From Chloroflexota bacterium (lineage in GTDB: Bacteria > Chloroflexota > Dormibacteria > Aeolococcales > Aeolococcaceae), in the NCBI GenBank assembly GCA_005880985.1, contig VBIQ01000009.1, forward strand, positions 29,025 to 93,024: a stretch of 64,000 bases of DNA, read 5' to 3'. The notes under the pieces are model-generated. The model was not told the origin of the DNA, searched no databases, and saw nothing but the letters and a program-made list of their open reading frames with translations. Made by a program: the position numbers and the translations under genes. Positions 49,225 through 60,883 of the stretch are shown here, piece by piece (within the stretch, counting starts at the first letter, position 1; every line of letters starts with the position of its first letter).

Positions 49225-50400
49225 CTACGGCGGCACCGACTCGACAGTGCCGTCGTCTCCGCGGCGCAGCGGCCGGCCCCCCTCGTGCACCTGTCGATGA
49301 TGACGACGGCAGAGCAGTACAAGATTTCCAAGTTTGGTCGCTCCACCGTCGGCCCAGTGCTTGATGTGGTGCGCGTCGGTCCAGTCGGCAGGACGGTCGC
49401 ACCCCACGAACTGGCATCCCCGATCGCGGAGGATGAGAGCTCGCCGGATCGCAGGCGGGACGCTGCGAGTGGAGCGGCCAGCATCGAGCGGGTTCCCCGC
49501 GGCGTCGACCGAGATGCGAGTAACCGACGCGTCGCAGGCGAGGCGACGTGCCGTCTCGGCGGGAATGACGCCCGCCCACGCGAGCTCGGCACCAGGCGAT
49601 CCCGGTTGCCGTTGCAAGGTTGCCATTGGCGCCGTCACGGTGAGATGGGGGCGGACACCGTGCGCCGTGGGCAGCTCGCCGGAGTTCAGCGACCGCCTTG
49701 CCAGCTCGACAAGGGCGTCGGCACGGCGTCGGGCCGGGGTGAGCTCGGAGTCGCGACGCGGTGGCATGAGAGCCTCGAGCGCGGTCCGCAAGCAGGCGCC
49801 ACCCTCGGCATCGAGCACACCGTCGAGGACGAACAGGCCGTCCATCGTTTGGCTGAGGTGCAGCCGCCAGCGCTCATGGTTTGCGTTGGCATCAGACAGA
49901 GAGCCATCGGGATCCACGCAGTGGCGCGCATGTGCTGCGACGATGCGCATCTGCTCCGGTCGAAGCCGGGTGGCACTGTCGGCGAGGATGTTGTCAACTC
50001 GCTGGATGGCCTCGATTCCGGCGGAACCGGCGGTGCGAGCGACCACGGCGGCGTTCTGAAAGCCGATGTCGCCGCGACGGAATCCAGCCCATGTGGCGGG
50101 TAGGCTCGGCAACTGGCGCGCGATCTCTTCTCGCTGTACCGCTGCGGCTCCCGACAACCCGCATTCGCGTCGGAGCCAACCTACGGTCGACAGCGCGTTG
50201 TCGGCTAGGTACTCCTGCGCCACGGCGAACCGCGAGAGCGTGTCGGCGAATTCAGCCTCCAGGCGATCGATGGACCGCCGAATATGGCGACGACGGTCGC
50301 CCAAGCCGGCGGTTTGCCCGCCGAGGCGGTCGCGGGCGAGCTCGTCGATGGCGGCCTCGAGCGCCTCGAACTTCGGGTCCCGGATCGGCGGCTCCAGCAT
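49225..50400 (-). CDS. DUF222 + HNH endonuclease protein (REP13E12-like selfish-element family)
   Basis: C-terminal 'CQFVGCDRPADWTDAHHIKHWADGGATKLGNLVLLCRRHHRQVH'. Start set at 'MLEPPIRD' so that the SOS box lies upstream. Confidence 0.85.
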   Translation of the reverse strand: MLEPPIRDPKFEALEAAIDELARDRLGGQTAGLGDRRRHIRRSIDRLEAEFADTLSRFAVAQEYLADNALSTVGWLRRECGLSGAAAVQREEIARQLPSLPATWAGFRRGDIGFQNAAVVARTAGSAGIEAIQRVDNILADSATRLRPEQMRIVAAHARHCVDPDGSLSDANANHERWRLHLSQTMDGLFVLDGVLDAEGGACLRTALEALMPPRRDSELTPARRRADALVELARRSLNSGELPTAHGVRPHLTVTAPMATLQRQPGSPGAELAWAGVIPAETARRLACDASVTRISVDAAGNPLDAGRSTRSVPPAIRRALILRDRGCQFVGCDRPADWTDAHHIKHWADGGATKLGNLVLLCRRHHRQVHEGGRPLRRGDDGTVESVPP

Positions 50401-50422
50401 GGCGACCACCACAGAATTGTAG

Positions 50423-50438
50423 CAGAACACTTGTTCGT
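50423..50438. promoter_or_regulatory. LexA/SOS (Cheo-type) box caGAACacttGTTCgt upstream of the HNH gene
   Basis: GAAC-N4-GTTC palindrome read directly, starting 23 nt upstream of the proposed ATG at 50400. Confidence 0.55.
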
Positions 50439-50542
50439 AGGGCAAGTCCCCAGAGGGGCCGGGCCGGGGCCCGAACCCTTGGTGCGCTCGCCGCCTGCCG
50501 CCGGCACGGCGTCGTGAGACGCTACGGCCACACTCGCCCCAG

Positions 50543-50616
50543 GGGCGGATAGCTCAGCTGGTCAGAGCGTCTCGCTTACACCGAGAAGGCCGCAGGTTCG
50601 AGTCCTGCTCCGCCCA
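50543..50616 (+). tRNA. tRNA-Val (anticodon TAC)
   Basis: 74 nt. Acceptor GGGCGGA/TCCGCCC plus discriminator A; D-arm AGCTCAGCTGGTCAGAGC; anticodon stem TCTCG/CGAGA with loop CT-TAC-AC; T-arm GCAGG-TTCGAGT-CCTGC. No encoded CCA. Confidence 0.93.
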
Positions 50617-50660
50617 GGGTGCGCGCTCCCCGGATCGAAGATCAACGGCCTGCTAGGCGC

Positions 50661-50697
50661 GGGTCGGTCACGCTAGCTGCGCTCACGTGACCGACCC
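50661..50697. terminator. 12-bp perfect inverted repeat, bidirectional terminator candidate between tRNA-Val and the convergent repeat-protein gene
   Basis: gggtcggtcacg-(13 nt)-cgtgaccgaccc, read directly. Confidence 0.5.
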
Positions 50698-50710
50698 ACG
50701 CCCCGAGCGC

Positions 50711-53287
50711 CTACCCCCTGCAGACGACCGCCACTACGGTGCCGGTACCCGGGTGGCCCGGGTCGGGCGCATAGCCGGGATTGTTCTTCACGATCACGAT
50801 CTCTTTGATGTCTCCGCTGACGACGGATCCGGATTGTGTGATCTTGCTGGAGACGATCACGCCCATAAACTCGGGAACGCTCGGCGGTGGCGGTGTCGCG
50901 TTGCCGGTGTCCGTGGTCCAGCTTCCACCACAAGCAGGCGGAAGCCCCAGTGGATTGTCTTCGAATCCAGAGAAACCCTTCATCGTGGTGGGCGCCGGTC
51001 CCCCGCTCATGGGGTTCAGCTGCGCCCACTGATTGCTCCACCAGCTGACGGAGTTCAGTAGCGTAGCCTCAAGGTCACCGATGACGAAGGTAGCTTGGTT
51101 GCTCGTTGGAAAGGCGAAGACGATCACAGTGCACGTGGCGGTGGTCGAACTGCCGCCGACGTCCTTGATCGTCGTCGCGATCGTGAAGCTGCCAGTCGAT
51201 GTGTAGGTATGCCTGCCGCTCACGGTGTACGGCGCGGTGCCAGGTCCGCCGGTGATCGTGCCAGACGAGCTTGGACCGTCGCCCCAGCTGATCGTTGCTG
51301 AGAAGTCGTTCAGCGCCCCGGTCGAACTCGCGTCGGTGAACGTCGCGGTCGGTCCAGTGTAGGATTGCTGCGTGAACTGTGGCATGGCGCAGTTCGAAGA
51401 AAGGGCGGCGTCGCCAACGTTGGCAGTCGAGTGGGCCGTGGCGGAGTTGCTCGAGTTGTCAACGTCGGTGATGGTGACCGTGACCGGGTATGTCGACTCT
51501 TCGGCATAGGTGTGGGTTCCGCTCACCGAGAAGGTTCCGCTCGCACCGGAGACCGTTCCGGTCGTGGTACCCGTTGCGTCCCCCCAATCGATGGTGGCGG
51601 AGTACTCGCTCGACATCGCCGCGGTATCCGGATCGGTGAAGGTCGCGACCTTGCCGGAGAACGACTGGCCCTCGGTGGGCGCAAAGGTGGTCCCCGACGC
51701 CCTGATTGCAGGGTCGCTCGGCCGCGGGGCGACCAGGGTTACGCCATTCGGCGGGTAGAGGACCGTGTAGTTGGTCCCACCGAAGTTGAAGGTCGCGAAG
51801 GTCCCGCTGCGACCGCCCGCACAGGAGATGATCGGCCAGGTGCTCCCGAACGTTGGCGTGCCTAGGGTGGTGACCTGCAAGGTTCCATCGACGCTCACTG
51901 CCTCACCGCAGAAAATGCCTGTGAACGTGTTGTGGACGGCGTCCACGGTGACGCCTAGCGTTGCCGGTGACCCCTGGGCGTAAGACCCGGGGCCGCCCAG
52001 GGTTGAGCCGGGCTCGACGATCACCGTGTCGTTGGTGTTGGTGAGCGTCCTGCTGCCCTGGATCGTGACGGTGCCCTGGTTGTCGAACAGCCCGGCCCCA
52101 TCCAGGTGTAGGACGAGGTTGCTGCCGTTGTGGTTGACGTTGATCGTCCCCTTGTTGGTGACCGAACCCGTGAGCTCGCGGTCCCCTCGACAGCAGCCGG
52201 TGGTGGCTATGGTGCCGGTATTGGTCAGCGTCGAGCCCGACGGGATGACGAGCTGTGCCGTACCGCCGCAACCGTCGTCCGCATTGCCCAGGTTGATTGT
52301 CCCGGCATTGGTCATGCTCCCAGCCAGGTTGGCCACTGAGCTGACCACCCCGCAGCCGTGGATGTTGATCGTCATCGTCTGAGCGGCGGCGATGGTCGAA
52401 CCGCTGATCGTGTTCGGCCCGCCGTCGCCCCGAAGGTCGAAGGTACTGGCGCCGCTGCCAGTGAAGCGCAGTGTGGCACCGCCGTTGACCAGAACCGGGT
52501 TACCAGTCGTCGTACCGGCGCTCTGGGTGAAGGTGTTGCCGTTGTTCAGGATCAGCTGGCCGGTGATGCCATTGCCAGCGATCGAGCCCCCTGAATCGTT
52601 GCGGAACTCGAGGCCGGTGCCTCCGGAGACTACGAGCGTTCTGCTGTCCCCGATTGTGACGGTGCCCTGGTTGTCGAACAGCCCGGCCCCATCCAGGTGT
52701 AGGAAGAGGTTGCTGCCGTTGTGGTTGACGTTGACCGTCCCCTTGTTGGTGACCGAACCCGTGAGCTCGCGGTCCCCTCGACAGCAGCCGGTGGTGGCGA
52801 TGGTGCCGGTGTTGGTCAGTGTGAAAGGGGAGATGATGGTGAGCTGGGCGGTGCCGCCACAAGCATCGTTGATATTGGCGAGGTTGATCGTGCCGGCGTT
52901 GCTGGAGTCGCCGTAGAGGGTGAGGAAGGCGCTGATGGCGCCGCAGTTGAGTTCATCGATGCTGAGAGTGGGCCCAGCTTCGATCGTGAGCGACTTGGCC
53001 TGCACGCTTTCGCCGATGATCGAAACGGTGTACGAGCCCAGGGGAAGGCACGCGTTGGAGCTCGATGTCGGAACGCCCGCGGACCAGTTGCCGGGGGTAG
53101 TCCAACGGCCGTCGCCGGCGACGCCGGTCCACGCGGTGTCGCAGACAGCCGCGCGTACCTGTGGGGCGCTCGCCACGGCCAGCGTAGCTGCCAGCGTGGC
53201 AGCAGCGGTGAGGAGCGCAGCCCAACGGCGGCTCCGGGTGGCGGATCGGGGTAGCCGTACGCGGTGGAAGAATCGGTTCCCATCCAT
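50711..53287 (-). CDS. Large secreted repeat protein: duplicated Cys-containing beta-helix-like modules + two PKD-like domains + unknown C-terminal domain
   Basis: Start at 'MDGNRFF...' with signal peptide '...AATLAATLAVASAPQVRA'. Gly/Thr/Asn-rich beta-solenoid-like repeats. 'ATIDWGD...GTHTY...VTVTITD' and 'ATISWGDG...GRHTY...TTIKD' are PKD-like. No LPXTG motif or TM anchor seen. Confidence 0.8.
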   Translation of the reverse strand: MDGNRFFHRVRLPRSATRSRRWAALLTAAATLAATLAVASAPQVRAAVCDTAWTGVAGDGRWTTPGNWSAGVPTSSSNACLPLGSYTVSIIGESVQAKSLTIEAGPTLSIDELNCGAISAFLTLYGDSSNAGTINLANINDACGGTAQLTIISPFTLTNTGTIATTGCCRGDRELTGSVTNKGTVNVNHNGSNLFLHLDGAGLFDNQGTVTIGDSRTLVVSGGTGLEFRNDSGGSIAGNGITGQLILNNGNTFTQSAGTTTGNPVLVNGGATLRFTGSGASTFDLRGDGGPNTISGSTIAAAQTMTINIHGCGVVSSVANLAGSMTNAGTINLGNADDGCGGTAQLVIPSGSTLTNTGTIATTGCCRGDRELTGSVTNKGTINVNHNGSNLVLHLDGAGLFDNQGTVTIQGSRTLTNTNDTVIVEPGSTLGGPGSYAQGSPATLGVTVDAVHNTFTGIFCGEAVSVDGTLQVTTLGTPTFGSTWPIISCAGGRSGTFATFNFGGTNYTVLYPPNGVTLVAPRPSDPAIRASGTTFAPTEGQSFSGKVATFTDPDTAAMSSEYSATIDWGDATGTTTGTVSGASGTFSVSGTHTYAEESTYPVTVTITDVDNSSNSATAHSTANVGDAALSSNCAMPQFTQQSYTGPTATFTDASSTGALNDFSATISWGDGPSSSGTITGGPGTAPYTVSGRHTYTSTGSFTIATTIKDVGGSSTTATCTVIVFAFPTSNQATFVIGDLEATLLNSVSWWSNQWAQLNPMSGGPAPTTMKGFSGFEDNPLGLPPACGGSWTTDTGNATPPPPSVPEFMGVIVSSKITQSGSVVSGDIKEIVIVKNNPGYAPDPGHPGTGTVVAVVCRG
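52065..52228 (-). repeat. Internal near-identical repeat, copy 1 (pairs with 52656-52819)
   Basis: 164 nt with 4 mismatches to copy 2 by eye. Encodes 'LTNTGTIATTGCCRGDRELTGSVTNKGT[VI]NVNHNGSNL[FV]LHLDGAGLFDNQGTVT'. Confidence 0.9.
52656..52819 (-). repeat. Internal near-identical repeat, copy 2 (period 591 nt = 197 codons)
   Basis: See copy 1. Flanking module sequence is only loosely similar. Confidence 0.9.
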
Positions 53288-53850
53288 CCGGAAGCTCCCT
53301 CCCGTCCTCGGCGGCTTGGGTGGTGTTCGGCTAGCAAGAAACCCACCATCCGCGCTATTCACGTCGATCGCGGCAATCGAGGCAATCGCTTGTTCAACGC
53401 CTGGGCCTCGGTTTTCTTGCGCTGCTTTCCGTGCGGAGGAGCTTCGCTGCTGAGCCGGAGGTCGAAGGGCGAGCTGCTAACTCGGTCACCGCCTCCGGCG
53501 GTGGGACTCCTTGCGGCTCCAGGACCAGTCGGGCTCGGCGTCGACGTAGATCCGCTCCGCCATCGGTCCTGCGAGGTCAATGGTCATCGCCTCGCTAGCC
53601 AAGGCGCCGCGGGGGTGAGGGTGTGCCTGCCCTCCGTCTGGCCCCTTGGCCGTTGTTGAGAGGCTCATACCCGTCGCTCAGTCCCAGCCCGCCGCCCTGG
53701 CGAGCCCGACCAGCAGCTCCTTCACTCCTGCGAAGTTTGAATAAGACACCGCTCCGCCCACCCGCAGCAATCCGTCCGTCCCGTGTGATCCAAACACGAC
53801 GCGGCCGTCCGGTCGGGAGGCTGCGGCACACGGCAGGCGTCGCGCGATGC

Positions 53851-54660
53851 CTACAGGGTGACGACCTCGACGCTGTGCTTAGTGGCGCTCTCCACCATCT
53901 CCGGCGGAAAGGCATCGGGGTAGTGCAGGTCCGGAAGCTCCGCGTACCGCGGGGAGTACTGGGTAGCGCCCTTCTTCAGTTGGTAGCGGTGTCCAACCAT
54001 GTCCGCGAGGAACTGATTTGTGGCAAAGCGGTCGCGCTGACCGGTCGAGAAGAAGAGTGCGTACTTCGCTTCCCTCGTCTGTCGCCTCATGGGGGTGCTG
54101 CGATGAACCGCGCGCCCGTGCCATATCACCAGGTCTCCCGCTCGGATGCGTAGGGTGTGCTTCGCGCGCGGCATGAGAAGGCGACGAGCGAACTGCACGC
54201 CATAGTAGCCAAAGGGCGATCGGCCGCTGATGAATCGAAGCACCGGCCTGTGCGACCCGCTGATCACATCCAGTCCACCACCGAGCTCTCGGTCGTTGTC
54301 CTGCAGATAGATCACGCATTGGAAGTGCAGGAAACCCGGCTTCCATACGTACCTCTTGTCAGGGCCGGCAAAGGCTGGGTCGATGTGCCATCCGACATAG
54401 AGGTTCTTCCTGACGATAAAGTTTGGGTAGAGGACGTACGACTCGCCGTAGACTGTTTTCAAAAGCGCGACCACGTCCTCGCGCAGAGGAATACGGGCGA
54501 GCTCCGGAGTGCGAAGGAACACCGACGCTGGCATCTCGTCTGTGTCCGCCGCCCCAAACCACTCGTCACAGAAATCCCGCAGGCGCCCGATCTCGTCTGG
54601 AGTGAGCACGCCAGACACAACGGAATAGCCGCGGCTTCGGAGTTCGTGAGCTGCCGACAA
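53851..54660 (-). CDS. PhyH-family Fe(II)/2-oxoglutarate dioxygenase
   Basis: 269 aa; 'WHIDPAF' (HxD), 'GGLDVISGSH', 'WHGRAVHRS'. More A/T-ending codons than in flanking core genes. Confidence 0.75.
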   Translation of the reverse strand: MSAAHELRSRGYSVVSGVLTPDEIGRLRDFCDEWFGAADTDEMPASVFLRTPELARIPLREDVVALLKTVYGESYVLYPNFIVRKNLYVGWHIDPAFAGPDKRYVWKPGFLHFQCVIYLQDNDRELGGGLDVISGSHRPVLRFISGRSPFGYYGVQFARRLLMPRAKHTLRIRAGDLVIWHGRAVHRSTPMRRQTREAKYALFFSTGQRDRFATNQFLADMVGHRYQLKKGATQYSPRYAELPDLHYPDAFPPEMVESATKHSVEVVTL

Positions 54661-54823
54661 CTCGAAGGCCTCCCAAGTGGGCTACCCTAGCGCCTCCACG
54701 AGTCTAGCCGAACTCATTACCACCCTCAGCAACCCAGACACCTCGAGCGTACCTGGCATACGGCACCCTTTCGGCCGGAGTGCGCAGTGGAATACTCTGA
54801 CTGGTAGTGGACGCGAGGCCAGC

Positions 54824-55564
54824 ATGAACGAGCGGGACAATCTCTTCACCACCACCGAGCCGAGCGTGGGCGACTTCCACTTTGGCGAAGACGTTGCTCG
54901 GGTCTTCGATGACATGGTCAGTCGGAGCGTGCCGTTCTATCGGGAGCTCCAGCGGATGGTTGTGGAGCTGGCTCGGATGTTTGCGAGGAGTGGGACGCGG
55001 GTGTACGATCTCGGCTGCTCCACCGGGACCACTCTAATTCAGCTGGCGCAGGCCTGCCGCAGCCTCGATGTCCAGCTCGTGGGCGTGGATAACTCCGAGC
55101 CCATGCTGGTACGAGCGCGGGAGAAGCTTGCGGGGGCTAAATGCCTCGACCGCTGCGTCCTCACGAACGCTGACCTCGACGACCTGCGTGTCGAAAACGC
55201 CAGCGTGATTCTCATGATCCTGACCCTCCAGTTCATTCGGCCGGCTCGGCGGGAGACGCTGATCCGGCGGCTCGCCGAGGGACTGGTGGGCGACGGCGCG
55301 CTGATCCTGGTCGAGAAGACTGTCTCTGCCGATCCGATGGTCAACAAGATGTTCATCGACTACTACCACGACTTCAAAAGACGCCAAGGCTATTCTCAGC
55401 TCGAGGTTGCCCGGAAGCGGGATGCCCTCGAGGATGTCCTCATCCCGTACCGGCTCGATGAGACCGTGGAGCTGTTGATGCACAACGGGTTCGCGACTGT
55501 CGAGGTGTTCTTTCGTTGGTACAACTTCGCAGGAATCCTTGCCGTCAGCAGAACGCCGGCCTAG
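54824..55564 (+). CDS. cmoA: Carboxy-S-adenosyl-L-methionine (Cx-SAM) synthase CmoA homolog
   Basis: 246 aa, collinear by eye with E. coli CmoA: 'F..DVARVFDDMVSRSVPFY', 'VYDLGCSTG', 'VDNSEPM', 'ENASVILMILTLQF', 'HDFKRRQGYSQLEVARKRDALEDV', 'WYNFAGILA'. Confidence 0.85.
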   Translation: MNERDNLFTTTEPSVGDFHFGEDVARVFDDMVSRSVPFYRELQRMVVELARMFARSGTRVYDLGCSTGTTLIQLAQACRSLDVQLVGVDNSEPMLVRAREKLAGAKCLDRCVLTNADLDDLRVENASVILMILTLQFIRPARRETLIRRLAEGLVGDGALILVEKTVSADPMVNKMFIDYYHDFKRRQGYSQLEVARKRDALEDVLIPYRLDETVELLMHNGFATVEVFFRWYNFAGILAVSRTPA

Positions 55565-55569
55565 AGCAG

Positions 55570-56616
55570 ATGCGAGATCGCTGGCCTGGCGAGAGCACCC
55601 GCTTGCAGCGCAAGCCAGGCGCGCTCGCGCGTGCAGCGATCAAGGGCGCCTGGCTTCTCTACCGGCTGGTGCCGCCGTCTCTGCGGTCCCGACTAGGCGG
55701 CGTCGGGCGCGGCGCCGTTCACGCATTGGTAGAGGCTGACCTGTTCCCCGCCGCGTCCTTCTCGCTTCGGCACAACGGGACGAGCTTCAAGCTATATGTG
55801 GTCAAGGATCGGTTCTGGGCTTTCAGCGCCTACTCGAGGTGGGCTGATGGTACGGCAGTCTACGAACGCGTCATGCTGGAGTGCCTGACGCGTCTTCTTC
55901 GGGGGATGGCGCATCCGGGGTTCATTGACGTCGGGGCGTTCATGGGGCATTACGCCTGCTATGCGACCGCTCTCCTCGGTGACAAAGAAGAGACCTATGC
56001 GATCGAGAGCAATCCTCAGTACTACTCGGCGCTCCTGCGGTCGATCGAGCTCAACGGATTCTCAAAGCTCAAGGCGTTCAATGTCGTGCTCTCCGACAGA
56101 GTCGAAGCTGCCGGCATCGACAAGCAGACCGTCCTGCTCTTCGAGCCGCAGGAGACGCGGACCCACAGCATGACGCTGGACGAGCTGTGCCGGCGCGAGG
56201 GCATCCGGCCCAAGATCGTCAAGATCGACGTGCATGGGAGCGAGGGGAAGGTGCTCCTGGGGATGGGGGACATCATGAGCGAGTGTCTCGAGTACATCTT
56301 GCTCGAACTCTCTCCGCTGGACGTACTGCGGCAATACTCCGGAGCCATGGGTAGGTCGGATATCCTGACGCACCTCGAGCAGCACGGCTTCCACGTATTC
56401 CACATGGCGGGGCATCGATACCCGGGTTCCGAGGGGCTGCGGCAGGCACTCGAGGCGGGCTTCGCCTACCGACGCTTGAATGCCAAGAGCAGTGACCTCC
56501 TGCTGTTTGATAGGCCACAGGACGTATTCGTGCTGTGCAGCAAGAGGGCCGACCTGGAGACGATTCTGGGACCGAGCGTCGCGGATCCAGGGCTCGAACT
56601 GGATAGCCTAGTCTGA
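55570..56616 (+). CDS. FkbM-family (Methyltransf_21) SAM-dependent methyltransferase
   Basis: 'FIDVGAFMGHYACYA', 'YAIESNPQYY..L..SIELNG', 'VKIDVHGSEGKVLLG'. The ATG lies 5 nt after the cmoA stop. Confidence 0.75.
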   Translation: MRDRWPGESTRLQRKPGALARAAIKGAWLLYRLVPPSLRSRLGGVGRGAVHALVEADLFPAASFSLRHNGTSFKLYVVKDRFWAFSAYSRWADGTAVYERVMLECLTRLLRGMAHPGFIDVGAFMGHYACYATALLGDKEETYAIESNPQYYSALLRSIELNGFSKLKAFNVVLSDRVEAAGIDKQTVLLFEPQETRTHSMTLDELCRREGIRPKIVKIDVHGSEGKVLLGMGDIMSECLEYILLELSPLDVLRQYSGAMGRSDILTHLEQHGFHVFHMAGHRYPGSEGLRQALEAGFAYRRLNAKSSDLLLFDRPQDVFVLCSKRADLETILGPSVADPGLELDSLV

Positions 56617-56896
56617 GCTACCCCGCTTTTTGCCAGCAGTTCCATCCCCGTTCTGGTGACGCGCTCGCGCACGCGCTGTGGAGAACGCCGCCATCTCGGC
56701 ACTGTCCAGGACACCGGCGAGCACAATGTGATCGCGGTAGTGGTGGACCATCGGCTGAAGACGTTTGAAGTAGCCATCACATCCGATGACGACTGAACGG
56801 GGGCGGTGCCCGTAGCGCCGTCCCCGTTCTCTACCTGCAGGCCGCCCCACCGTGGGTGACGCGGCCGCCGCAGTGGCCCCTATGCTGGGGACCGCG

Positions 56897-59959: not shown

Positions 59960-60883
59960 TCAAACCGCATTGCCGTCGCGGTCGACACCGGCGACCCGCC
60001 GCCACGCCAGCGGCACCCGCCCGGGCTTGAACACGCCGGCGTCGGCGAGCCCCTTGAACACGGCGCGGGCACACTGCCGGCGCAGGGCGACACGCTTGGG
60101 TTGCCGGCGCACCCGACGCCAGGTGCGCAGCGCGGGCAGGCCGACGGTGGGATACACGTACGGCTGGACGATGGTGTCGAACATGAAGACGATCCCCAGC
60201 GGCACCACCCAGCGGACTCCGAACCTGTCGCTCCAGCTCGTGTGCCGGTAGTGCTCGCCGACGGTGGTGCGGGCGAAGGCGATGTGGCGGGCCTCCTCGA
60301 GGCGGTGGTAGCGGCTGATGTCGCGCACGTAGCCGTCGGTGTCGGGATGCTCCGCGGCGAGCTTCTGCAGCAGGTCGGGGATCTCCTCGCCCACGAGCAC
60401 GAAGGCGTCGAGGGTGGCGGGGCGCCGGAGGAGGATGGGGAGGGACCGCGAGCGGACAGCGGTGGCCAGACGGCTCTCGAACGGGTTGCGCTGCGTGGCC
60501 GCGAGTTCGGCGAGGAGTCGCACGAAGAGCCGCGAATGGCGGGTCTCCTCGCCGATCTCGTGCAGGGCGTAGGTGAAGCGTGGGTCGGTGACGTCTCGGC
60601 TGAGCGCCATCTGGTAGGCGAAGCCGGACATCAGGATGGCCTCGAAGACGACCCCGAAGCGCACGATGGAGGCCAGCTCCTCGCGAGCCAGAGTGGCCCG
60701 CTGGGCAGGCGTGAGCCGCAGGCCAAGCCCATCGATGGAGAGCAGGTCGTCGGGAAGGACCTGGTCCTTGGTCAGGCTGCCGGTGACCTCGACGTCGGGC
60801 TCGATCACCCGGCGCACCGAGACACGATTGAGGCGTTCGATTCGGTCGGTGTTGCGCTCGGGGGCCGTCTGGGTGGCGGTCAT
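59960..60883 (-). CDS. Ferritin-like diiron oxygenase (AurF / PF11583-type)
   Basis: 307 aa. Two ExxH motifs 'HEIGEETRHSRLF' and 'HRLEEARHIAF', plus 'GEEIPD'. Confidence 0.7.
   Translation of the reverse strand: MTATQTAPERNTDRIERLNRVSVRRVIEPDVEVTGSLTKDQVLPDDLLSIDGLGLRLTPAQRATLAREELASIVRFGVVFEAILMSGFAYQMALSRDVTDPRFTYALHEIGEETRHSRLFVRLLAELAATQRNPFESRLATAVRSRSLPILLRRPATLDAFVLVGEEIPDLLQKLAAEHPDTDGYVRDISRYHRLEEARHIAFARTTVGEHYRHTSWSDRFGVRWVVPLGIVFMFDTIVQPYVYPTVGLPALRTWRRVRRQPKRVALRRQCARAVFKGLADAGVFKPGRVPLAWRRVAGVDRDGNAV

What the first reader, a model, noticed from the sequence alone, without database searches (positions are those of the whole stretch)
53851..56616. Orphan carboxy-SAM synthase (CmoA) in a 2-gene operon with an FkbM-family methyltransferase, divergent from a PhyH dioxygenase, with no CmoB
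**Seen in sequence:**
- A full-length CmoA homolog, collinear with E. coli CmoA by eye, including the 'KRDALEDV' region.
- It is followed 5 nt later by an FkbM/Methyltransf_21 gene.
- A PhyH-type Fe/2OG dioxygenase is transcribed divergently from a shared 163-nt spacer.
- No CmoB-like gene is in the window.

**Established:**
- CmoA converts SAM plus prephenate to carboxy-SAM.
- The only characterised consumer is CmoB, which carboxymethylates ho5U34 of tRNA.
- ho5U is made by TrhO or TrhP, not by a 2OG oxygenase.

**Inference:** the FkbM-like enzyme may be a new class of Cx-SAM-dependent carboxymethyltransferase, and the PhyH enzyme may install the acceptor hydroxyl. The target could be either of two things:
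- A non-canonical xo5U34 pathway. tRNA-Val(UAC), a classical cmo5U tRNA species, lies 4 kb away.
- A glycan, a small molecule, or the neighbouring giant surface protein.
Basis: partly seen in the sequence, partly recalled or inferred. Interest (0 to 1): 0.78.

Follow-up and report, generated by a model that had tools for sequence, protein, structure and literature searches.

The report
Carboxy-SAM cassette for glycan carboxymethylation
A horizontally acquired gene pair, a carboxy-SAM synthase (CmoA) plus an unusual FkbM-type transferase, recurs across many phyla, mostly inside sugar-polymer gene clusters, which points to an undescribed carboxymethyl decoration of cell-surface glycans and not to tRNA modification.

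Summary
Three intact genes sit at the stated coordinates:
- a PhyH-type dioxygenase (53851-54660, minus strand);
- a bona fide CmoA (54824-55564), which scores 238 bits on TIGR00740 against a cutoff of 193 and keeps Arg199;
- an FkbM-family gene (55570-56616) that starts 5 nt after the CmoA stop.

No CmoB-like gene was found in the window.

The premise that CmoB is the only known carboxy-SAM (Cx-SAM) user is outdated. TglF, the MccB C-terminal domain and phage CmoX are also characterised users.

**The pairing is conserved.**
- Among FkbM-like genes with His in the K-I-D-V-H-G-x-E motif, 60 of 75 non-redundant clusters have a CmoA-family gene immediately adjacent. These come from soil, marine and MAG contigs of many phyla.
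- None of 13 Glu-type FkbM loci do.

**The context is mostly glycan biosynthesis.**
- The neighbours are glycosyltransferases, ABC exporters and sugar epimerases.
- One locus fuses a glycosyltransferase domain to the FkbM-like domain.
- Another locus places a chorismate mutase fusion, which would supply prephenate, beside the cassette.
- The window itself keeps a dead GT4 fragment (56683-56787). It matches the intact GT4 that follows the same trio in the closest relative.

**The other ideas fare less well.**
- The tRNA-Val proximity is not conserved.
- The role of PhyH is unresolved.

**Verdict:** probably a new family of Cx-SAM-dependent carboxymethyltransferases that act on glycans. No biochemical test has been done.

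The parts
53851..54660 (-). PhyH-family Fe(II)/2-oxoglutarate dioxygenase, 269 aa, TTG start. An accessory tailoring oxygenase whose substrate is unknown.
   Evidence: PF05721 scores 32.3 bits against a cutoff of 22. H92-x-D94...H186 is invariant in all 6 homologs found. dN/dS against the L007 ortholog is 0.19. The best matches among solved structures are the sugar-modifying oxygenases SnoK, SnoN and EvdO2, but these are weak (E 2e-5 to 0.02).
54661..54823 (.). Divergent intergenic spacer between PhyH and CmoA, 163 nt.
   Evidence: Sequence read. No sigma-70 consensus match and no Rfam match or riboswitch. The divergent PhyH/CmoA arrangement recurs in L007 and L056.
54824..55564 (+). CmoA, carboxy-S-adenosyl-L-methionine synthase, 246 aa.
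   Evidence: TIGR00740 scores 239 bits against a cutoff of 193.3. Gapless alignment to 4GEK and 1IM8. It keeps Y39, D62, G64, S66, D89, N90, D117, F137 and the carboxylate-binding R199 defined in PMC3663124. N132 is Ile here, but other close CmoA-family homologs from MAGs (two annotated CmoA by NCBI) also have Ile or Val. dN/dS is 0.18.
55570..56616 (+). His-type, long-form FkbM-like transferase, 348 aa. Proposed Cx-SAM-dependent carboxymethyltransferase.
   Evidence: TIGR01444 scores 74.8 bits and PF05050 24.6 bits. The AF2 model has pLDDT 85.5 and a class I Rossmann methyltransferase core. It carries the K218-I-D-V-H222-G-S-E225 motif and a C-terminal module with Y300, D314 and R315. It starts 5 nt after the CmoA stop. 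A CmoA-family gene is adjacent in 60 of 75 His-type clusters. dN/dS is 0.24.
56634..56791 (-). Relic of a GT4 glycosyltransferase gene. About 50 of 381 codons remain, so the gene is dead.
   Evidence: tblastn with the L007 GT4 matches residues 243-277 to window 56787-56683 at 77% identity, E 1.5e-13. Residues 317-329 match 56672-56634 collinearly. At the nucleotide level, window 56684-56791 matches L007 11365-11472 at 82%, E 1e-25. In L007 the intact GT4 lies convergent, directly after the FkbM-like gene.
49225..56791 (.). Stretch with atypical codon usage, probably horizontally acquired. It holds DUF222-HNH, tRNA-Val(UAC), an 883-aa secreted Thr/Gly/Ser-rich PKD-domain protein, and the trio. 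This is context only; these neighbours are not conserved with the cassette.
   Evidence: Third-position GC content is 0.75-0.81 here against about 0.86-0.96 for most other genes in the window. Overall GC is 0.617 at 54-56 kb against about 0.70. No repeat of the tRNA 3' end was found. The surface protein is absent from all other loci. Nucleotide homology to L007 covers only 53885-56643 plus the GT4 relic.

Best explanation
The window carries a horizontally acquired two-gene carboxymethylation cassette plus an accessory oxygenase.

1. CmoA converts SAM and prephenate to carboxy-SAM. The family assignment and active-site residues are shown by sequence; the activity is inferred.
2. The translationally coupled His-type FkbM-like enzyme uses Cx-SAM in place of SAM and transfers the carboxymethyl group to an acceptor. 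This is inferred from conserved pairing.
3. The acceptor is most likely a hydroxyl of a sugar in a cell-envelope glycan or glycolipid, which would give an O-carboxymethyl (glycolate ether) substituent that adds negative charge. This is inferred from the neighbourhoods and from the O-methyltransferase ancestry of the family.
4. The PhyH-type Fe/2OG dioxygenase is an optional tailoring enzyme of this sub-lineage. It may oxidise the sugar or the new CH2 group. This step is speculative.
5. In this genome the trio was cut out of a glycan cluster like the one in its closest relative, and the adjoining GT4 gene has decayed. The glycan it decorates, if any, must be made elsewhere in the genome.
For: **CmoA is genuine**
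- It scores above the TIGR00740 cutoff, aligns without gaps to 4GEK, and keeps R199 and the SAM-binding residues.

**The pairing is tight and conserved**
- The gap between the two genes is 5 nt.
- The same PhyH-CmoA-FkbM trio occurs at 78-85% amino-acid identity in L007 and in the P0002 contig.
- CmoA plus FkbM-like pairs occur in Acidobacteriota, Spirochaetia, Dadabacteria, Cyanobacteria, Bacteroidota, Firmicutes, Proteobacteria and Bathyarchaeia MAGs, and in 80 metagenome loci.
- After de-duplication at 90% identity, 60 of 75 evaluable His222-type clusters have a CmoA-family gene within 600 nt. None of 13 Glu222-type loci do.

**His-type genes without a dedicated CmoA**
- Many of them are in Betaproteobacteria (L016, L017, L019, L023) and SAR11 (L020, L021, L029).
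- If those genomes carry a housekeeping CmoA, as is reported for gamma-proteobacteria and a few other proteobacterial classes (PMC6063277), it could supply Cx-SAM. This is my inference; those genomes were not checked.

**Glycan context**
- L007: GT4, ABC transporter, PMT_2 and several GT2 genes.
- L001: GT2, ABC exporter, DegT, formyltransferase, GT1.
- L011: PMT_2. L022: GT2. L024: epimerase and LPG_synthase_TM.
- L073: a single ORF fuses a DXD glycosyltransferase domain to the FkbM-like domain, between GT25 genes.
- L087: an Stf0 sugar sulfotransferase, and a DAHP synthase::chorismate mutase fusion that would supply prephenate.
- In 20 marine loci, the 100 neighbouring proteins are dominated by GT1 (11), epimerases/dehydratases (10), Polysacc_synt_2 (9), GT2 (8) and ABC transporters (8).

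**Evidence within the window**
- A GT4 relic lies directly downstream of the FkbM-like gene.
- All three genes show purifying selection, with dN/dS 0.18-0.24.
- CmoA and CmoB were not found in Actinobacteria in a published survey (PMC6063277). The trio also has atypical codon usage.
Against: - No biochemistry exists for any member of this FkbM-like subfamily.
- The cofactor pocket could not be inspected, because no coordinates were available. No carboxylate-binding residue is therefore established.
- His at position 222 is also common (47%) in the nearest generic FkbM proteins, so it is not diagnostic on its own.
- Many partner CmoA-like proteins lack R199 (49 of 72), so part of the statistic rests on proteins whose product is uncertain.
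- The counts are not corrected for phylogeny, and the loci were retrieved with patterns biased towards His-type motifs.
- In the window there is no intact glycosyltransferase within 10 kb, so the local target is unknown and the cassette could be on its way to decay.
- Some cassette contexts are not glycan-related: acyl-CoA dehydrogenase, periplasmic binding protein, or ATP-grasp/AurF small-molecule-like clusters.
- A natural O-carboxymethyl glycan has not been reported in the literature I could search. That is either novelty or a warning.
Confidence: 0.58

Rival explanations
1. Canonical tRNA role. This CmoA feeds a CmoB encoded elsewhere in the genome to make cmo5U34, for example on the nearby tRNA-Val(UAC). 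The FkbM-like and PhyH genes are unrelated neighbours.
For: The protein is a full CmoA equivalog. tRNA-Val(UAC) lies 4 kb away. The rest of the genome could not be searched.
Against: - The CmoA/FkbM-like adjacency is conserved across phyla, and the two genes are only 5 nt apart.
- No cmo5U-type tRNA lies near the cassette in 15 other loci.
- The trio has atypical codon usage and its homology block ends at a GT4 relic.
- A published survey found CmoA and CmoB mainly in proteobacteria and not in Actinobacteria.
- None of the four close CmoA relatives inspected was next to a CmoB. Their partners were FkbM-like or PEMT.
Confidence: 0.07
2. Non-canonical xo5U pathway. The FkbM-like enzyme replaces CmoB and carboxymethylates ho5U34, with PhyH making ho5U.
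For: The cassette has a CmoA without a CmoB. A dioxygenase could in principle hydroxylate uridine. A tRNA-Val gene is nearby.
Against: - The cassette lies in polysaccharide clusters, and one locus fuses a glycosyltransferase domain to the FkbM-like domain.
- The subfamily is rare: 37 word-indexed hits and 85 clusters at E<=1e-30. That is not the distribution of a housekeeping tRNA enzyme.
- PhyH is absent from most cassettes.
- No RNA-binding domain was detected.
Confidence: 0.04
3. The cassette acts on a small molecule or peptide natural product, not on a glycan. Alternatively, the FkbM-like enzyme is an ordinary SAM methyltransferase that works beside some other, unidentified Cx-SAM consumer.
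For: - The short-form cassettes sit beside ATP-grasp ligases, Asn synthase, AurF-like oxygenases, GNAT and MFS genes.
- A PhyH relative at 49% identity sits with radical SAM and halogenase-like genes.
- The known non-tRNA uses of Cx-SAM are in peptide or nucleotide natural products.
- The window itself has no intact GT nearby.
Against: - The long-form subfamily, to which the window gene belongs, is mostly found with glycan genes.
- The window keeps a GT4 relic.
- In minimal two-gene loci such as L009/L010, the FkbM-like protein is the only candidate consumer.
Confidence: 0.2
4. The cassette is a stranded remnant in this genome. The trio lost its glycan cluster on transfer and is no longer physiologically meaningful.
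For: The neighbouring GT4 is reduced to about 50 codons. There are no glycan genes within 10 kb. The region has island-like codon usage.
Against: All three ORFs are intact, with dN/dS 0.18-0.24 against L007. The same intact arrangement was assembled from several samples. Glycan genes can be encoded elsewhere in the genome.
Confidence: 0.11

Closest known systems
CmoA/CmoB (tRNA cmo5U34 pathway, E. coli)
   Same: The first enzyme is the same: CmoA, with R199 and the SAM-binding residues. The logic is also the same: a Cx-SAM synthase encoded next to the enzyme that consumes Cx-SAM.
   Different: The partner is not a CmoB (PF08003) homolog but an FkbM-family (PF05050) protein. The context is glycan biosynthesis, not translation. 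No conserved tRNA linkage exists.
TglE/TglF (3-thiaglutamate) and MccS/MccB C-terminal domain (carboxymethyl-McC)
   Same: These are CmoA homologs recruited outside tRNA metabolism and paired with a dedicated carboxymethyltransferase. MccB-CTD shows that a methyltransferase fold unrelated to CmoB can be specific for Cx-SAM (PMC10491745).
   Different: Their acceptors are a peptide thiol and a cytidine. Their transferases are CmoB-like or a distinct fold, not FkbM. No RiPP or microcin genes are present here.
Phage CmoA/CmoX/CmoY (5-carboxymethylcytosine DNA hypermodification; PMC12783734)
   Same: The cmoA is mobile and paired with a repurposed methyltransferase family. The carboxylate may serve as a handle: Asn-synthase or ATP-grasp ligases sit beside several cassettes, as CmoY does in phage.
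   Different: CmoX is a C5-cytosine DNA methyltransferase homolog with a defined Arg that contacts the carboxylate. Here the transferase is FkbM-like, the context is glycan, and no such residue is established.
FkbM-family O-methyltransferases (FK506 31-O-methyltransferase; sugar O-methyltransferases of glycan clusters)
   Same: The Pfam and TIGR family, the Rossmann core and the motifs (FxDxGAxxG, K-x-D-x-[E/H]-G-x-E) are shared, as is frequent residence in polysaccharide clusters.
   Different: This subfamily has His in place of Glu in motif IV, an ESNP motif, and an extra C-terminal module (Y300, D314, R315). It is nearly always encoded next to a CmoA-family gene.
Acidic non-carbohydrate glycan substituents: lactyl (1-carboxyethyl) ethers and pyruvate ketals
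   Same: The predicted outcome is the same: a carboxylate-bearing ether on a surface sugar.
   Different: Those derive from PEP through enolpyruvyl or pyruvyl transferases. Here the donor would be Cx-SAM and the product a carboxymethyl ether. A 2023 review of glycan side-chain groups does not list this substituent.

Membership tests
CmoA (carboxy-SAM synthase, TIGR00740) | Score above the curated equivalog cutoff, with a full-length match | tested here: met
   239 bits against a cutoff of 193.3, covering model positions 1-238 of 239.
CmoA (carboxy-SAM synthase, TIGR00740) | Arg199, which salt-bridges the Cx-SAM carboxylate, plus the SAM-contacting residues (Y39, D62, G64, S66, D89, N90, D117, N132, F137) | tested here: met
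   The gapless alignment to 4GEK gives identical numbering. All residues are conserved except N132, which is Ile; two other close CmoA-family homologs also have Ile or Val there.
CmoA (carboxy-SAM synthase, TIGR00740) | Prephenate-dependent carboxylation of SAM | not testable with these tools
   This needs an enzyme assay. Indirect hint: a chorismate mutase fusion lies beside one related cassette (L087).
Canonical cmo5U pathway (CmoA + CmoB + TrhO/TrhP) | A CmoB (PF08003) partner, usually adjacent to cmoA | tested here: not met
   No PF08003 hit on the FkbM-like protein. No other class I methyltransferase motif in the window's ORFs. None is listed for 45.6-64 kb. The whole genome was not searchable.
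FkbM family methyltransferase (PF05050 / TIGR01444) | HMM score above the cutoff and a class I Rossmann methyltransferase fold | tested here: met
   74.8 bits (cutoff 37.7) and 24.6 bits (cutoff 22.7). The AF2 model has pLDDT 85.5. Foldseek finds only class I methyltransferases, including 2PY6 (FkbM), at TM-score up to 0.40.
FkbM family methyltransferase (PF05050 / TIGR01444) | Methyl transfer from plain SAM | not testable with these tools
Conserved pairing with CmoA argues for Cx-SAM as the donor.
Cx-SAM-dependent carboxymethyltransferases (functional class: CmoB/TglF, MccB-CTD, CmoX) | Encoded with a dedicated CmoA | tested here: met
   60 of 75 His-type clusters have an adjacent CmoA-family gene, against 0 of 13 Glu-type loci.
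Cx-SAM-dependent carboxymethyltransferases (functional class: CmoB/TglF, MccB-CTD, CmoX) | A basic residue positioned to bind the cofactor carboxylate (K91/R315 in CmoB, a key Arg in CmoX) | tested here: inconclusive
   The candidates are K218, H222 and R315, which are conserved in 94-98% of the subfamily.
Cx-SAM-dependent carboxymethyltransferases (functional class: CmoB/TglF, MccB-CTD, CmoX) | Sequence homology to a characterised member | tested here: not met
   The A1 profile finds no CmoB, MccB or C5-methyltransferase structure. The best PDB sequence hits are COMT at E 0.02.
PhyH-type Fe(II)/2OG dioxygenase (PF05721) | HMM score above the cutoff and an H-x-D...H iron-binding triad | tested here: met
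   32.3 bits (cutoff 22). H92, D94 and H186 are invariant. The AF2 model was poor (pLDDT 58) and was not used.

The most novel reading that the evidence does not exclude
His-type FkbM-like proteins are a previously unrecognised, widely distributed family of Cx-SAM-dependent carboxymethyltransferases. They install carboxymethyl (glycolate) ethers on surface glycans, a natural modification missing from current glycan catalogues. In some lineages the new carboxylate or CH2 group is processed further, by PhyH-type oxygenases (for example oxidative cyclisation or hydroxylation) or by Asn-synthase or ATP-grasp amide ligases, in parallel with the phage CmoX/CmoY logic.
Probability: 0.45. Interest if true: 0.85.

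Novelty: new variant of a known kind. Interest (0 to 1): 0.74.

Why it matters
- Carboxy-SAM has only four characterised consumers, acting on tRNA, a RiPP thiol, a microcin nucleotide and phage DNA.
- A fifth, evolutionarily independent transferase family aimed at glycans would extend Cx-SAM chemistry to the cell envelope. It would also predict a new acidic glycan substitument class, relevant to charge, phage and immune recognition, and cell-wall anchoring.
- It would explain why many genomes that lack CmoB still carry CmoA-family genes annotated as tRNA enzymes.
- It would offer a natural O-carboxymethylating biocatalyst, an activity so far obtained by engineering methyltransferases (PMC7496830).
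- The cassette has only two genes, so the prediction can be tested directly by co-expression in E. coli, which already makes Cx-SAM.

Tried and rejected
- **Integration site.** I looked for an att-like repeat of the tRNA-Val 3' end to define an integrated element. None was found.
- **RNA elements.** An Rfam scan of 49-57.5 kb for a SAM-type riboswitch or other RNA found only the tRNA. The promoter and terminator scan was uninformative.
- **Structure of the FkbM-like protein.** Foldseek of the AF2 model against the PDB returned only generic class I methyltransferases (TM-score up to 0.40). There is therefore no template from which to place the cofactor carboxylate. A sequence-profile search of the PDB returned only COMT at E 0.02.
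- **Structure of PhyH.** The AF2 model was too poor (pLDDT 58) to use for fold search.
- **His222 as a marker.** I first took His222 to be a unique signature of the subfamily. It is not: 47% of the nearest generic FkbM proteins also have His. Only the His/Glu split against CmoA adjacency holds.
- **Surface protein as target.** The neighbouring PKD surface protein is not conserved with the cassette anywhere.
- **PhyH as an obligate member.** Rejected. It is adjacent only in the window, L007 with the P0002 contig, and L056. A different PhyH lineage occurs in L075. It is absent next to the 68% and 49% PhyH homologs.
- **Literature.** Searches for CmoA or Cx-SAM together with FkbM, glycan or O-antigen terms, and for natural O-carboxymethyl glycans, found nothing relevant.
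- **Not achieved.** The organism could not be named, because sources are masked for window proteins. A CmoB sequence for an explicit tblastn was not obtained. The CmoA relative chosen for that purpose turned out to be paired with a PEMT-family gene instead.

Full report
**1.

The window is high-GC (about 0.70) and dips to 0.617 at 54-56 kb. The three ORFs are present as described.

- **CmoA.** Its likely start is the ATG at 54824. It scores 238-239 bits on NCBIfam TIGR00740, the CmoA equivalog model, against a curated cutoff of 193.3. It aligns without gaps over its whole length to E. coli CmoA (4GEK) and H. influenzae YecO (1IM8). Because the alignment is gapless, E. coli numbering applies directly. 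Y39, D62, G64, S66, D89, N90, D117, F137 and R199 are all present. R199 is the residue that salt-bridges the carboxylate of carboxy-SAM (PMC3663124). N132 is Ile, but two other close CmoA-family homologs from MAGs (both annotated CmoA by NCBI) also have Ile or Val there.
- **FkbM-like gene.** It starts 5 nt after the CmoA stop codon. It passes both TIGR01444 and PF05050.
- **PhyH gene.** It is divergent from CmoA, passes PF05721, and has an invariant H92-x-D94...H186 triad.
- **No CmoB.** No other class I methyltransferase motif is found in the window's ORFs, and no PF08003 appears in the precomputed annotation of 45.6-64 kb. 'No CmoB in the window' therefore stands. The rest of the genome could not be searched.

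**2. One premise is outdated**

CmoB is not the only characterised Cx-SAM consumer. The others are:

- TglF, in 3-thiaglutamate biosynthesis;
- phage CmoX, which makes 5-carboxymethylcytosine in DNA.

All are documented (PMC10491745; PMC12783734). A CmoA recruited away from tRNA and paired with a new transferase is therefore a known kind of system. The question is whether this is another instance.

**3. The FkbM-like protein belongs to a small, distinct subfamily**

- A word-indexed search of 5.8 billion proteins found only 37 relatives.
- An exhaustive profile search of 1.84 billion representatives found 85 clusters at E<=1e-30, inside a generic FkbM family of more than 15,000 at 1e-10.
- The subfamily keeps the FkbM motifs, with His in K-I-D-V-H222-G-x-E, an ESNP motif, and a C-terminal module with Y300, D314 and R315 that generic FkbM proteins lack.
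- The AF2 model is confident (pLDDT 85.5). It resembles solved structures only as a generic class I methyltransferase (TM-score up to 0.40; 2PY6 ranks 31st). The cofactor pocket could not be examined.

**4. The pairing with CmoA is conserved far beyond chance neighbours**

- The closest relative on a long contig is L007. Its proteins are 78%, 85% and 81% identical to the window's, and it has the same PhyH(-)/CmoA(+)/FkbM(+) arrangement with the same 5-nt junction.
- Scans of GTDB representative genomes and of JGI metagenome contigs with the family profile returned 43 and 80 loci.
- tblastn shows a CmoA-family gene immediately beside the FkbM-like gene, usually upstream on the same strand. The hosts include Acidobacteriota, Spirochaetia, Dadabacteria, Cyanobacteria, Bacteroidota, Firmicutes, Alpha- and Betaproteobacteria, Bathyarchaeia and many low-GC marine contigs.
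- After clustering at 90% identity, 60 of 75 evaluable His222-type clusters have a CmoA-family gene within 600 nt. None of the 13 loci with Glu at position 222 do.
- His-type genes without a neighbouring CmoA are mostly in Betaproteobacteria and SAR11. I infer that a housekeeping CmoA, as reported for several proteobacterial classes (PMC6063277), could serve there. This was not checked in those genomes.

Caveats on these counts:

- They are not corrected for phylogeny.
- The search patterns favoured His-type motifs.
- His is also frequent (47%) in the nearest generic FkbM proteins.
- Only 23 of 72 adjacent partners keep R199. Another 19 have Lys there, and the rest have a conserved Lys/Arg one helix turn further on. 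All 25 partners aligned in A2 (including three reference homologs) still match TIGR00740 at E<1e-10.
- The window's own CmoA is of the unambiguous R199 type.

**5. What the cassette acts on**

For the long-form subfamily, to which the window gene belongs, the neighbours are mostly glycan genes:

- L007: GT4, an ABC transporter pair, a PMT_2 (GT-C) protein and several GT2 genes.
- L001: GT2, an ABC exporter, a DegT aminotransferase, a formyltransferase and GT1.
- L011: PMT_2.
- L022: GT2. L024: a sugar epimerase and LPG_synthase_TM.
- L023: a GT2-GT1 fusion.
- L073: one 687-aa ORF fuses a DXD glycosyltransferase domain to the FkbM-like domain. It lies between GT25 genes, with CmoA in the same gene string.
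- L087: the FkbM-like gene is flanked by an Stf0-type sugar sulfotransferase and a DAHP synthase::chorismate mutase fusion. The latter would be a local source of prephenate, the CmoA co-substrate.
- In 20 marine loci, the 100 proteins within 5 kb are dominated by GT1, sugar epimerases/dehydratases, Polysacc_synt_2, GT2 and ABC transporters.

Not every context is glycan-like:

- Some long-form loci sit beside acyl-CoA dehydrogenases or periplasmic binding proteins.
- Short-form cassettes sit beside ATP-grasp ligases, Asn synthase and AurF-like oxygenases.

**6. The window carries its own trace of that ancestry**

- Nucleotide homology to L007 runs from just inside the 3' end of PhyH to the end of the FkbM-like gene (53885-56643, 83.6% identity). 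It resumes at 56684-56791 (82%).
- That second segment encodes, on the minus strand, residues 243-277 of the L007 GT4 glycosyltransferase (77% identity, E 1.5e-13).
- In L007 that GT4 is intact and convergent, directly after the FkbM-like gene. Here about 50 of its 381 codons remain.
- The trio also has lower third-position GC content (0.75-0.78) than most other genes in the window (about 0.86-0.96). So do the adjoining surface-protein and DUF222-HNH genes.
- The trio was therefore carried in from a glycan cluster, and the adjacent glycosyltransferase has since decayed.
- The three genes themselves are intact and show dN/dS of 0.18-0.24 against L007.

**7. tRNA-Val and the surface protein are coincidental**

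- No tRNA-Val or other cmo5U-type tRNA lies near the cassette in 15 other loci.
- No repeat of the tRNA end marks an integration site.
- The 883-aa Thr/Gly/Ser-rich PKD-domain protein occurs only in assemblies of this same genome.

**8. PhyH**

- The family is rare, with six relatives.
- The divergent PhyH/CmoA arrangement recurs in L007 and in L056, where PhyH is 65% and CmoA 48% identical and an IS630-type transposase follows CmoA.
- It does not recur next to the 68% or the 49% PhyH homologs.
- An unrelated PhyH-domain protein follows FkbM-CmoA in L075. Another PhyH sits with a GT4 gene 5 kb from the FkbM-like gene in L008.
- The best solved relatives by profile are SnoK, SnoN and EvdO2, all Fe/2OG enzymes that act on sugar residues. 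These matches are weak (E 2e-5 to 0.02).
- PhyH is therefore a recurrent but optional companion. Whether it prepares the acceptor, oxidises the new CH2 group or does something else cannot be decided here.

**9. Most likely mechanism**

1. CmoA makes Cx-SAM from SAM and prephenate. The family and residues are shown; the activity is inferred.
2. The His-type FkbM-like enzyme transfers the carboxymethyl group to an acceptor. This is inferred from pairing.
3. The acceptor is most likely a sugar hydroxyl of an envelope glycan or glycolipid, giving a carboxymethyl ether. This is inferred from context and from the O-methyltransferase ancestry of the family.

I put about 0.75-0.8 on functional coupling of the two genes, about 0.6 on Cx-SAM as the donor, and about 0.45 on a glycan acceptor in this organism.

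**10. Novelty**

- Full-text searches found no paper that links CmoA or Cx-SAM with FkbM-family enzymes or with glycans.
- A 2023 review of glycan side-chain groups lists methyl and 1-carboxyethyl ethers but not carboxymethyl.
- The system is a new variant of a known kind. The CmoA-plus-transferase logic is established, while the transferase family and the acceptor class would be new.
- It can be tested directly with two recombinant proteins, or by expression in E. coli wild type against a cmoA deletion strain.

Noticed in passing
L002 1513-2981; L003; L054/L055 4001-7195: CmoA homologs 56-57% identical to the window's are followed directly by a PEMT-family membrane methyltransferase. In L054/L055 an EptA-type phosphoethanolamine transferase comes next. 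This is another CmoB-less pairing and may be directed at lipids.
   Followed up: no
L073 5717-7780: A single 687-aa ORF fuses a DXD glycosyltransferase domain (Gly_transf_sug) to a His-type FkbM-like domain. It is flanked by two GT25 genes and a GT-D-like gene, with CmoA 1.3 kb upstream on the same strand.
   Followed up: partly
L087 5718-10895: The gene order is Stf0 sulfotransferase, FkbM-like gene, DAHP synthase::chorismate mutase fusion (a prephenate source), then a 440-aa CmoA-like protein with an N-terminal extension.
   Followed up: partly
Alignment A2; loci L015, L018, L025-L028, L031, L034-L038 and most marine loci L088-L140: A large subgroup of CmoA-like partners lacks Arg199 (Lys, Thr or Ser instead) but keeps Lys/Arg at position 203, one helix turn on. 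Whether they still make Cx-SAM is unknown.
   Followed up: partly
L018 11844-13685; L027 11286-12560; 4 of 20 marine loci: Asn-synthase or ATP-grasp amide ligases lie beside cassettes. This recalls the phage CmoY ligase that extends the carboxymethyl handle.
   Followed up: no
window 55570-56616, residue 248 of the FkbM-like protein: The window, L007, P0123 and P0124 have Ser where 94% of the subfamily and 90% of generic FkbM proteins have His (LLELS against LLELH). The PhyH-linked loci with an FkbM-like gene (the window and L007) belong to this subclade. PhyH adjacency could not be checked for P0123 or P0124.
   Followed up: no
window 50711-53362 (-): An 883-aa secreted Thr/Gly/Ser-rich protein with PKD-like domains and an internal duplicated block of about 120 aa containing CCRGD. 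It is found only in assemblies of this genome.
   Followed up: partly
window 59960-60883 (-); L034 8837-9844; L035 8292-9149: An AurF-like diiron oxygenase gene lies 3.3 kb from the window cassette, with normal codon usage. The same family lies directly upstream of short-form cassettes in two marine or alphaproteobacterial loci. This is probably coincidence.
   Followed up: no
window 49225-50445 (-) and 50543-50616 (+): A DUF222-HNH endonuclease gene abuts tRNA-Val(UAC) at the edge of the stretch with low third-position GC content. This suggests a hotspot for gene gain, but no att repeat was found.
   Followed up: partly
L056 2069-5656: A PhyH (65% identical) is divergent from a CmoA (48% identical), as in the window. 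An IS630-type DDE transposase occupies the position of the FkbM-like gene.
   Followed up: partly
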